Shown here: piece by piece, positions 27,763 through 27,824 of the stretch
Numbering within the stretch: position 1 is the stretch's first letter
Layout of the letters: the number at the start of each line of letters is the position of its first letter
From: Escherichia phage BP9
Sequence record: PP488543.1
DNA: 64,000 bases
Direction: 5' to 3' (one strand)
Notes under the pieces: generated by a model
Seen by the model: only the letters and a program-made list of their open reading frames with translations
Told to the model about the DNA's origin: nothing
The model's database searches: none
Program-made: the position numbers and the translations under genes

Positions 27763-27824
27763 CTGTCCGTCACGCGGACACATCTGTCCGTAATACGGAC
27801 ACTAACTGTCCGTGATACGGACAC
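27763..27824. repeat. three tandem 17-19 bp palindromic operator-like sites
   Basis: TGTCCG-N5-CGGACA repeated at 27764-27780, 27785-27801, 27807-27823; centre spacing 21-22 bp. Confidence 0.7.

What the first reader, a model, noticed from the sequence alone, without database searches (positions are those of the whole stretch)
27763..27824. Array of three near-identical palindromic operator-like sites at two-helical-turn spacing
Three copies of TGTCCG-N5-CGGACA lie in an intergenic region with centres 21-22 bp apart, the same-face geometry typical of cooperative dimeric repressor binding or replication-initiator iterons. The array is immediately downstream of an HTH protein gene (27338..27688) and upstream of an AT-rich dyad region and a structured element.
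Basis: seen in the sequence. Interest (0 to 1): 0.6.

Follow-up and report, generated by a model that had tools for sequence, protein, structure and literature searches.

The report
Candidate replication origin of rV5-like phage
The three palindromic repeats are most likely the initiator-binding sites (iterons) of the replication origin of an rV5-like E. coli phage, a phage group whose origin had not been located, and they sit beside a structured DNA/RNA element that small satellite-like plasmids share.

Summary
Three perfect TGTCCG-N5-CGGACA sites lie at 27764, 27785 and 27807, centres 21-22 bp apart. They occur nowhere else in the window, and the motif occurs only at this locus in the complete genome of the closest relative.

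The window is a Vequintavirus (rV5-like myophage). Relatives carry 2-6 copies of the same 21-22 bp unit.

The upstream 116-aa protein is homologous in sequence and fold to the iteron-binding N-terminal domain of RepA_N-type initiators (Vibrio PLE RepA 4RO3; staphylococcal RepA-DNA complex 5KBJ).

The 40 bp next to the array are the most AT-rich, least stable stretch of the window. The same stretch is the most AT-rich of the relative's whole genome.

The identical motif, at the same spacing, recurs in unrelated phage and bacterial contigs. In six of seven analysed, the array lies inside an O-like/HTH_36 initiator gene and is followed by an AT-rich tract, as in lambda ori.

Best reading: an iteron-plus-unwinding-element origin, unusual in that the initiator is only a DNA-binding domain and the origin lies outside its gene. 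An autoregulatory operator role is not excluded. No binding or replication data exist.

Side finding: the adjacent GC-rich element is shared, with compensatory changes, with 13-kb satellite-like E. coli plasmids.

The parts
27274..27303 (+). Sigma-70-like promoter (TTGACA-18-TATTTT with an extended -10 TG) upstream of the wHTH gene. Transcription from it would run through the gene and into the array.
   Evidence: The equivalent site is annotated as promoter P76 in rV5.
27338..27688 (+). Gene for a 116-aa winged-helix protein: a stand-alone RepA_N/O-like initiator N-terminal DNA-binding domain and the presumed iteron binder.
   Evidence: PHROG 12838 'replication initiation protein', E 5e-80. 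Pfam DUF6945 scores 27.4 bits and HTH_36 24.5 bits, both just under their cut-offs. The only PDB sequence hit is 4RO3, the PLE RepA N-terminal domain (E 2.5e-6; 38% identity over 79 aa). The AlphaFold model has pLDDT 83, and its top fold hits are 4RO3, 4PQL, 4PT7 and 5KBJ.
27736..27760 (.). Hypervariable patch that resembles a decayed extra iteron (TGTTCACCATGGAACA).
   Evidence: In the alignment of 9 Vequintavirus genomes, this is the one stretch that differs in nearly every genome, while the flanks are 95-98% identical.
27764..27780 (.). Iteron 1, TGTCCGTCACGCGGACA.
27785..27801 (.). Iteron 2, TGTCCGTAATACGGACA. In most relatives this copy reads TGCCCG..., an uncompensated change.
27807..27823 (.). 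Iteron 3, TGTCCGTGATACGGACA.
27824..27866 (.). A-rich AT tract, the candidate DNA unwinding element.
   Evidence: 27825-27864 is 92.5% AT. It is the most AT-rich and least stable 40-, 60- and 100-bp segment of the window (nearest-neighbour dG -37.4 against a mean of -53.4, sd 3.3). The same stretch is the most AT-rich of the whole YN3 genome.
27867..27935 (.). Interleaved inverted repeats (GATCTAGTA/TACTAGATC and ATGGTACTAAG/CTAAGTACCAT) carrying two GATC sites and 3 of the window's 7 TAAGTAC copies.
   Evidence: As single-stranded DNA, 27755-27945 folds with a z-score of -6.4.
27957..28170 (+). GC-rich structured element. It comprises hairpin 1 (27966-28014; inner stem 27980-27989 / 27997-28007) and a conserved core (28062-28169; stem 28115-28120 / 28145-28150). 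It is shared with 13-kb satellite-like E. coli plasmids. Its function is unknown: candidates are a priming or helicase-loading site, a packaging (pac) site, or a non-coding RNA.
   Evidence: About 85% identity blocks in plasmids NZ_CP020521.1 and others. Compensatory changes: 2 in hairpin 1 and 3 in the core stem. No Rfam family matches.
28328..28906 (+). The next gene downstream (192 aa, PHROG 12226, unknown function). It marks the end of the 640-bp non-coding region.

Best explanation
The array is the iteron cluster of the phage's replication origin.

**Proposed mechanism (inferred).** Dimers of the adjacent 116-aa winged-helix protein bind the three dyad-symmetric 17-bp sites. These sites lie on one face of the helix, two turns apart. 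The resulting nucleoprotein complex destabilises the A-rich AT tract immediately to its right (27825-27864). The phage's own T7-gp4-like primase-helicase and the rest of its replisome can then enter the opened DNA. Transcription from the promoter at 27274-27303, which reads through the gene into the origin, may help opening or priming.

**Shown here.**
- The sites, their phasing and their uniqueness.
- The homology and fold of the protein.
- The extreme AT tract.
- The recurrence of the same motif-plus-AT-tract design in or beside initiator genes elsewhere.

**Inferred, not shown.**
- Binding of this protein to these sites.
- Unwinding of the AT tract.
- Replisome entry.
For: **1. The sites are real and unique to this locus.**
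- Three perfect sites in the window, none elsewhere.
- The complete YN3 genome has the motif only at this locus.

**2. The unit behaves like a protein-binding repeat.**
- Relatives have 2, 3, 4 or 6 copies, always in steps of 21-22 bp.
- In 36 units from 10 genomes the arms are invariant apart from position 3 (T in 28, C in 8), which is uncompensated. The central positions 8, 10 and 11 vary freely.
- This pattern is expected for sequence-specific protein recognition and not for a hairpin.

**3. The neighbouring protein is an initiator-type DNA-binding domain.**
- Its only PDB sequence match is 4RO3 (E 2.5e-6; 38% identity over 79 aa).
- 4RO3 is the N-terminal domain of Vibrio PLE RepA. That protein is an experimentally validated initiator that binds semi-palindromic iterons (PMC7145576; PMC8263062).
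- The pLDDT-83 model's best fold matches over 106-108 columns are 4RO3, 4PQL, 4PT7 and 5KBJ (a Rep-iteron DNA complex). Ordinary wHTH regulators align over only about 73 columns.
- Remote sequence relatives fall in HTH_36, DUF6945, DnaD_N and O-like initiator families.

**4. The flanking tract is an extreme.**
- It is the most AT-rich and least stable stretch of the window and of a whole relative genome.

**5. The same motif recurs in unrelated replicons.**
- The exact two-site pattern occurs in 12 bacterial/MAG contigs and 8 viral contigs from unrelated hosts, with 2-7 copies at 20-25 bp spacing.
- In six of the seven whose gene orientation was analysed (L043 was not scanned against any protein-family library), the array lies inside an ORF that hits 'replication initiation / O-like' PHROGs, or Pfam HTH_36, directly after the wHTH part.
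- In 6 of those 7 loci the array is followed, in gene orientation, by a locally extreme AT-rich tract (99.8th percentile or above).

**6. Lambda ori has the same order of parts.**
- Four 18-bp dyad iterons spaced 20, 24 and 23 bp, then an A-rich tract, then a palindrome.

**7. Sister genera keep the module while its sequence changes.**
- Mydovirus and Seunavirus have a 105-aa homologue (35% identity over 48 aa in GAP31). In GAP31 it lies next to different 23-bp-spaced repeats and an A-rich tract.
- Protein and sites therefore diverge together.

**8. Position in the genome fits an origin.**
- The global minimum of cumulative GC skew in YN3 lies 1.5 kb from the array.
Against: - There is no experimental evidence of binding or origin activity in any Vequintavirus. 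The rV5 genome paper could not define an origin, and it noted that skew changes coincide with switches in transcription direction. The skew argument is therefore confounded.
- The protein is only a DNA-binding domain. It lacks the C-terminal domain through which lambda O recruits the helicase and which RepA_N proteins carry for host-specific functions. A step in the mechanism is therefore missing.
- Pfam RepA_N itself does not hit, and DUF6945 and HTH_36 fall just below their thresholds.
- The closest relative has only two copies.
- In the sister genera the repeats lie in a divergent intergenic region, where autoregulatory operators would also be expected.
- Lytic phages with T7-like replisomes can initiate from promoters or by recombination, without iterons.
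Confidence: 0.68

Rival explanations
1. The sites form an operator array. The wHTH protein is a transcription factor that binds cooperatively, either to repress or insulate transcription running from its own gene into the downstream genes (a roadblock), or to autoregulate.
For: - The sites are dyad-symmetric and phased on one helix face, next to an HTH gene.
- GenBank records call the protein 'putative transcriptional regulator'.
- In Mydovirus and Seunavirus the homologue's repeats lie in a divergent, promoter-type intergenic region.
- Many iteron-binding initiators also autoregulate (established knowledge), so this role could coexist with origin function.
Against: - No sigma-70-like promoter was found on the + strand between 27304 and 28500. 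The only nearby minus-strand candidate lies in the hypervariable patch.
- The motif occurs at one locus only in a 137-kb genome.
- The protein's closest sequence and fold relatives are replication initiators, not regulators.
- The flanking tract is the genome's AT extreme.
- The same motif arrays lie inside initiator genes elsewhere.
Confidence: 0.15
2. The region is a packaging-recognition region (pac or cosB-like). The wHTH protein, or the terminase, binds the repeats, and the adjacent structured element is the signal that satellite-like plasmids copy in order to be packaged.
For: - The strongest nucleotide similarity between the 13.7-kb capsid- and tail-gene-bearing plasmid and the whole phage genome is the element right next to the array. 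Satellites typically mimic their helper's packaging site (established knowledge).
- Lambda cosB also has three repeated sites bound by a winged-helix protein (established knowledge).
Against: - The protein matches initiator domains and no terminase small-subunit or Nu1 family.
- The plasmids do not carry the TGTCCG motif. They have their own, different iterons in front of the shared element.
- The array is about 4.4 kb from the large-terminase ORF (32250), with tRNA genes in between.
- The same motif lies inside initiator genes elsewhere.
Confidence: 0.06
3. The module is not the phage's working origin. It is either a relic or a weapon: a captured replicon fragment whose DNA-binding-domain-only protein acts as a competitor or handcuffing factor, for example against satellites or co-infecting relatives that use the same iterons.
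For: - The protein lacks an effector domain.
- ICP1 phage uses a RepA-like DNA-binding domain, fused to a nuclease, against a satellite origin (PMC8263062).
- A GIY-YIG + DUF6945 fusion exists among the remote homologues (P0014).
- The gene and its array are confined to one genus.
Against: - The gene, the array and the AT tract are present in all nine Vequintavirus genomes aligned here, and all 118 records match the region by BLAST. Sister genera keep an equivalent module.
- The satellite-like plasmids found here do not carry this motif.
- The cognate sites lie in the phage's own genome, next to its most unstable DNA.
Confidence: 0.06
4. The palindromes act at the RNA level, as three stem-loops in the 3' untranslated region of the wHTH mRNA. 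They would be REP-like stabilisers or processing sites.
For: - Each site can form a 6-bp stem with a 5-nt loop.
- The array lies directly downstream of a gene on the transcribed strand.
Against: - The arm sequence, not just the pairing, is invariant. The one frequent arm variant (TGCCCG) breaks a pair without compensation.
- There is no T-run terminator.
- Elsewhere the same motif lies within coding sequence of initiator genes, in genomes of very different G+C content.
Confidence: 0.03

Closest known systems
Bacteriophage lambda ori with the O protein
   Same: The order and size of the parts match. Lambda has several 17-19-bp iterons with internal dyad symmetry at 20-24 bp spacing, then an A-rich tract of about 40 bp, then a palindrome. 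Its initiator has an N-terminal winged-helix domain. Lambda ori lies within the O gene, in the part encoding residues about 116-144 (from the coordinates). The other phages that carry the TGTCCG motif show the same layout, with the array just after the wHTH part of the gene.
   Different: There is no detectable sequence similarity to lambda O (BLASTP E 0.29). Here the gene stops 75 bp before the iterons. The protein has no C-terminal domain to recruit a helicase loader, and no P-like loader gene lies next to it.
RepA_N-family replicons: staphylococcal pSK41/pTZ2162 RepA and Vibrio cholerae PLE RepA with its ori
   Same: These are the best sequence and fold matches: 4RO3, 4PQL, 4PT7 and 5KBJ. 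Their N-terminal domains are dimeric and bind semi-palindromic direct repeats. PLE has three such iterons in a non-coding region and depends on a lytic phage's replisome (PMC7145576; PMC8263062).
   Different: Pfam RepA_N does not hit, and only DUF6945 and HTH_36 score, just below threshold. RepA_N proteins have a C-terminal domain, which is absent here. PLE iterons are about 30 bp, whereas these are 17 bp within a 21-22-bp unit. This protein belongs to a lytic phage, not to a plasmid or satellite.
Repressor-operator arrays of temperate phages (lambda OR/OL type)
   Same: Three adjacent dyad-symmetric 17-bp sites lie next to the gene of a small HTH protein.
   Different: There is no overlapping promoter and no second operator region in the genome. 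The phage is lytic, and the protein's fold is that of initiator N-terminal domains.

Membership tests
Iteron-type (lambda-like) replication origin | Several direct repeats of about 17-22 bp in helical phase | tested here: met
   Three perfect copies at 21/22 bp spacing. Relatives have 2-6 copies in steps of 21-22 bp.
Iteron-type (lambda-like) replication origin | AT-rich DNA unwinding element directly beside the iterons | tested here: met
   27825-27864 is 92.5% AT. It is the extreme of the window and, as the same stretch, of the whole YN3 genome.
Iteron-type (lambda-like) replication origin | Initiator gene overlapping or adjacent to the iterons | tested here: met
   An initiator-type wHTH gene ends 75 bp upstream. 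In other carriers of the motif the array lies inside the initiator gene.
Iteron-type (lambda-like) replication origin | The initiator binds the iterons | not testable with these tools
   Needs EMSA or footprinting. The only indirect support is that protein and repeats diverge together between genera.
Iteron-type (lambda-like) replication origin | The locus is where replication starts (marker frequency, 2D gels, autonomous replication) | not testable with these tools
   The only available proxy is the global GC-skew minimum 1.5 kb away, which is confounded by the direction of transcription.
Iteron-type (lambda-like) replication origin | The initiator carries a domain that recruits helicase or loader | tested here: not met
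   The protein is 116 aa and is entirely the DNA-binding domain. The downstream 192-aa protein shows no similarity to initiator C-terminal domains.
RepA_N / DUF6945 initiator N-terminal domain (protein) | Significant match to the family profile | tested here: inconclusive
   DUF6945 scores 27.4 bits against a cut-off of 28, and HTH_36 scores 24.5 against 25. Pfam RepA_N is not listed at E up to 1.
RepA_N / DUF6945 initiator N-terminal domain (protein) | Homology to a solved, functionally characterised member | tested here: met
   4RO3 (PLE RepA N-terminal domain): profile E 2.5e-6, 38% identity over 79 aa. Its function is described in PMC7145576.
RepA_N / DUF6945 initiator N-terminal domain (protein) | Full-length fold match (beta-hairpin plus winged helix plus C-terminal helix) | tested here: met
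   Foldseek ranks 1-6 (and 8) are 4RO3, 4PQL, 4PT7 and 5KBJ chains, aligned over 106-108 columns with TM 0.57-0.65, using a pLDDT-83 model.
Repressor-operator array | Sites overlap the -35/-10 elements of a regulated promoter | tested here: not met
   No sigma-70-like site on the + strand between 27304 and 28500. The minus-strand candidate at 27741-27713 lies outside the sites and in the variable patch. The scan covers sigma-70-type promoters only.
Repressor-operator array | Operators at the promoters of a regulon or at two control regions | tested here: not met
   There is a single locus in the 136,730-bp genome.
Packaging site bound by a small-terminase-type wHTH (cosB/pac) | The binding protein belongs to a terminase small-subunit or Nu1 family, and the site adjoins the terminase genes | tested here: not met
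   No such family appears in the Pfam, PHROG or NCBIfam scans. The large-terminase ORF starts about 4.4 kb away at 32250.

The most novel reading that the evidence does not exclude
The 640-bp non-coding region is a two-part origin. One part is a specificity module: iterons read by a minimal initiator that is only a DNA-binding domain. The other is a conserved structured element that the phage replisome or packaging machinery recognises. A family of 13-kb plasmid-form satellites, which carry capsid, tape-measure and baseplate genes related to Vequintavirus, would place their own, interchangeable iterons in front of a copy of the same element in order to hijack rV5-like phages. In the literature searched here, no paper reported satellites for this phage group.
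Probability: 0.3. Interest if true: 0.8.

Novelty: new member of a known kind. Interest (0 to 1): 0.5.

Why it matters
rV5-like phages (Vequintavirus) are widely isolated and are used in E. coli O157 typing, and their origin of replication has never been located. The rV5 genome paper tried skew analysis and could not separate replication from transcription.

A concrete candidate origin, with a candidate initiator, makes the question directly testable by binding assays, marker-frequency sequencing and iteron mutants. It would also be useful for engineering these phages.

The work shows that TGTCCG-N5-CGGACA at two-turn spacing is a recurrent iteron of O-like/HTH_36 initiators in phages of several bacterial phyla.

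The initiator here is reduced to its DNA-binding domain. This raises a mechanistic question: how is a T7-type replisome recruited without an adaptor domain?

The shared structured element links these phages to satellite-like plasmids for which these searches found no published description.

Tried and rejected
- **Rfam.** The gathering-threshold scan found only tRNAs. The permissive scan gave one sub-threshold hit, to Listeria rli43 (27.8 bits against a gathering score of 100). Its alignment merely threads the palindromes into hairpins, so I rejected it.
- **Direct homology to lambda O.** None was detectable.
- **Word-indexed protein search.** It found only near-identical proteins. The exhaustive HMMER search was needed to reach remote relatives.
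- **First AlphaFold run.** With 5 near-identical sequences it was unusable (pLDDT 45). I repeated it with remote homologues.
- **Host-factor sites.** No DnaA-box or IHF consensus sites occur in 27600-28330.
- **The downstream 192-aa protein as the missing initiator C-terminal domain.** It shows no similarity.
- **TAAGTAC as a second binding motif.** The copies are clustered (3 of the window's 7). However, the middle copy is disrupted by a 1-nt insertion in 5 of 9 relatives, so I make no claim.
- **The plasmids' 288-303-aa HTH protein as their iteron binder.** Plasmids with similar proteins have different iterons, and vice versa.
- **Plasmid and E. coli genome searches for the wHTH gene.** They found only a 137.6-kb 'plasmid' that carries Vequintavirus sequence.
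- **Literature searches.** Searches for an rV5/Vequintavirus origin, iterons or satellites found nothing relevant beyond the rV5 genome paper.

Full report
**What the window is.** The region matches 118 phage records at 90-98% identity, all of them rV5-like E. coli myophages of the genus Vequintavirus. The closest is vB_EcoM_YN3, at 98%. The finding lies in a 640-bp non-coding stretch between a 116-aa gene (27338-27688) and a 192-aa gene (28328-28906). To the left, on the minus strand, are nucleotide-metabolism and replication genes. To the right, on the plus strand, are tRNA, lysis and late genes.

**The observation.** Three exact copies of TGTCCG-N5-CGGACA lie at 27764, 27785 and 27807.
- No other copy exists in 64 kb, even with one mismatch allowed.
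- Shuffled sequence gave a mean of 0.06 matches, and never 3.
- In the complete 136,730-bp genome of YN3 the motif occurs only at this locus.
- The spacing of 21-22 bp places all three sites on one face of the helix.

**Behaviour in relatives.** The array expands and contracts in whole units:
- 2 copies in YN3;
- 3 in the window, nomo, JES2013 and A147;
- 4 in rV5, LL12, SYGMH1 and Aya;
- 6 in O157 typing phage 14.

Across 36 units the arms are invariant except position 3, which is T in 28 units and C in 8 and has no compensating change on the other arm. Central positions 8, 10 and 11 vary freely. This is the signature of sequence-specific recognition by a dimeric protein, not of a hairpin. 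A 20-bp patch immediately to the left (27738-27760) differs in nearly every genome and looks like a decaying extra copy.

**The neighbouring protein.**
- Pfam gives DUF6945 and HTH_36, both just below their cut-offs. PHROGs places the protein in family 12838, 'replication initiation protein'.
- It is confined to Vequintavirus in the phage collection and in the word-indexed protein search.
- An exhaustive HMMER search found only weak relatives. These belong to the HTH_36, DUF6945, DnaD_N and O-like initiator families.
- The only solved structure it matches by sequence is 4RO3 (E 2.5e-6; 38% identity over 79 residues).
- 4RO3 is the N-terminal domain of the RepA initiator of the Vibrio cholerae satellite PLE. 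That domain is dimeric and has a RepA_N-type fold. RepA binds semi-palindromic iterons in the PLE origin, and those iterons are needed for PLE replication. The same domain also guides the phage nuclease Odn to those iterons (PMC7145576; PMC8263062).
- With remote homologues added to the alignment, the AlphaFold model reached pLDDT 83.
- Its best fold matches over nearly the whole length are 4RO3, 4PQL, 4PT7 and 5KBJ, the last being a Rep-iteron DNA complex. Ordinary winged-helix regulators align over only about two thirds of the length.
- The protein is therefore a stand-alone initiator-type DNA-binding domain with no C-terminal domain.

**The flank.** The 40 bp directly to the right of the last site (27825-27864) are 92.5% AT, with the A's on the top strand.
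- It is the most AT-rich and thermodynamically least stable 40-, 60- and 100-bp segment of the window, about 4.8 sd from the mean.
- The same stretch is the most AT-rich of the complete YN3 genome.
- Interleaved inverted repeats with two GATC sites follow it.
- No sigma-70-like promoter overlaps the array or lies between it and the next gene.
- No DnaA-box or IHF consensus sites are present.
- The global minimum of cumulative GC skew in YN3 is 1.5 kb away, at the divergent transcription point. As the rV5 paper noted, skew and transcription direction cannot be separated in this genome.

**The same motif elsewhere.** The exact two-site pattern occurs in 12 contigs of unrelated bacteria and in 8 unrelated viral contigs of 20-64 kb and 49-70% G+C.
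- The bacterial contigs come from myxobacterial lineages, Treponema, Trueperaceae, Planctomycetota, Hymenobacter and Ruminococcus.
- Each locus has 2-7 copies at 20-25 bp spacing. My estimate of the chance expectation for a 24-base pattern in 596 Gb is well below one.
- In five viral contigs and the Treponema contig, the array lies inside a 300-430-aa ORF that hits 'replication initiation / O-like' PHROGs (270, 391, 345, 16167) or Pfam HTH_36. In each case it sits directly after the winged-helix part.
- In 6 of the 7 loci with known gene orientation, the stretch after the array is at the 99.8th percentile or above for local AT content, even in genomes of 65% G+C.
- This is the lambda arrangement. 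Lambda's four 18-bp dyad iterons, spaced 20, 24 and 23 bp, lie inside gene O and are followed by an A-rich tract and a palindrome.
- From memory, RepA_N plasmids likewise carry their origin inside the rep gene.

**Sister genera.** Mydovirus and Seunavirus encode a 105-aa homologue (35% identity over 48 residues in GAP31). It lies at the divergent junction. In GAP31 it is next to two different 20-bp repeats 23 bp apart, an A-rich tract and GATC palindromes. Protein and repeats have diverged together, which supports the idea that they are partners. Because that position is a divergent intergenic region, it also leaves room for an autoregulatory role.

**Most likely mechanism.** Dimers of the 116-aa protein occupy the phased iterons. 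The complex strains and opens the adjacent AT tract, and the phage's own T7-gp4-like primase-helicase (described for rV5) enters the opened DNA. Read-through transcription from the promoter at 27274-27303 may assist.

The sites, the protein family, the AT extreme and the comparative pattern are shown here. Binding, opening and loading are inferred. The weak point is the missing effector domain. I put the origin reading at about 0.68. A purely transcriptional operator role is at 0.15, a packaging role at 0.06, a relic or competitor role at 0.06, and RNA hairpins at 0.03.

**Side finding.** The GC-rich element to the right of the origin (27957-28170) matches, at about 85% identity, unannotated DNA in five circular E. 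coli 'plasmids', four of 13.2-13.7 kb and one of 39.6 kb.
- One of them, NZ_CP020521.1, encodes a major capsid protein, a tape-measure protein and a baseplate/Dit-like protein. The last is 50% identical to the window's product at 46795-47706. The plasmid also has about 2.9 kb of non-coding DNA.
- The two blocks of the shared element are the strongest nucleotide similarity between this plasmid and the whole phage genome. They are stronger than the homologous coding genes.
- Between the phage and plasmid versions, one stem shows three compensatory double changes and another shows two. One phage shows a G-U intermediate on the plus strand.
- Each plasmid has 5-7 iterons of its own at 23-bp spacing, upstream of the element. 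The spacing pattern is conserved (about 86, 43, 23, 23 bp) but the sequences differ between plasmids. None carries the phage's TGTCCG motif.
- These look like satellite-type elements of rV5-like phages. My literature searches found no paper reporting one.
- Whether the element serves replication or packaging, or is an RNA, is open.

**Verdict.** It is best explained as a lambda/RepA_N-type iteron origin with an unusually minimal initiator: a new member of a known kind. The adjacent satellite link is more novel and untested.

Noticed in passing
window 27957-28170; loci L017, L018, L019, L023, L024, L025: The GC-rich structured element next to the origin is shared, at about 85% identity, with five circular E. 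coli 'plasmids', four of 13.2-13.7 kb and one of 39.6 kb. NZ_CP020521.1 encodes capsid, tape-measure and Dit-like baseplate proteins related to Vequintavirus (other members were not examined) and looks like a plasmid-form phage satellite. Compensatory changes support two stems. No Rfam family matches.
   Followed up: partly
L017 175-455; L023 1149-1350; L024 1177-1365; L025 1016-1209; L018 942-1285: Each satellite-like plasmid has 5-7 iteron-like repeats with a conserved spacing pattern (about 86, 43, 23, 23 bp). The repeat sequences differ between plasmids, and they do not co-vary with the plasmids' 288-303-aa HTH protein.
   Followed up: partly
window 27738-27760: A 20-bp patch immediately left of the array is hypervariable among genomes that are otherwise 95-98% identical. 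It resembles a decayed iteron (TGTTCACCATGGAACA).
   Followed up: partly
window 28025-28042: rV5 and 'Campylobacter phage A147' lack 18 bp here. The deletion lies between two 10-bp direct repeats (AGTGCACACA / AGTGCATACA) and removes one arm of a predicted hairpin, so that hairpin is dispensable.
   Followed up: no
phage records MG0656xx (e.g. L007): Eighteen GenBank records named 'Campylobacter phage', marked UNVERIFIED with host C. jejuni, are about 96% identical to E. coli rV5-like phages across this region. They are probably mislabelled, or contaminants propagated on another host.
   Followed up: no
CP057073.1 (hits H131, H140): A 137,565-bp E. coli 'plasmid' record carries the wHTH gene (97% protein identity) and the structured element of a Vequintavirus. 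It may be a carrier state, pseudolysogeny or contamination.
   Followed up: no
NZ_CP043822.1 (L018): This 39,610-bp plasmid carries the shared element three times, and its length is three times about 13.2 kb. It appears to be a trimer of the 13-kb element, or a concatemer assembly.
   Followed up: no
P0014 (remote homologue): This protein fuses a GIY-YIG nuclease domain to a DUF6945 (RepA-like) DNA-binding domain. The combination recalls the ICP1 origin-directed nuclease Odn, but with the domains in the opposite order.
   Followed up: no
L012 1230-1400 and L015 1233-1484: Metagenomic contigs that encode remote homologues of the wHTH protein also carry 23-bp-spaced repeats next to AT-rich palindromic DNA and long non-coding stretches beside the gene.
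   Followed up: partly
L046 1171-1765; L047 1148-1744: Mydovirus and Seunavirus phages have a 105-aa homologue, annotated 'replication initiation protein', at the divergent transcription junction. It lies next to an A-rich tract, dyad repeats (23-bp-spaced direct repeats in GAP31) and, in GAP31, GATC palindromes.
   Followed up: partly
whole window: GATC occurs 357 times in 64 kb, about one per 179 bp, against roughly one per 256 bp for equal base frequencies. The phage encodes adenine methyltransferase-like genes.
   Followed up: no
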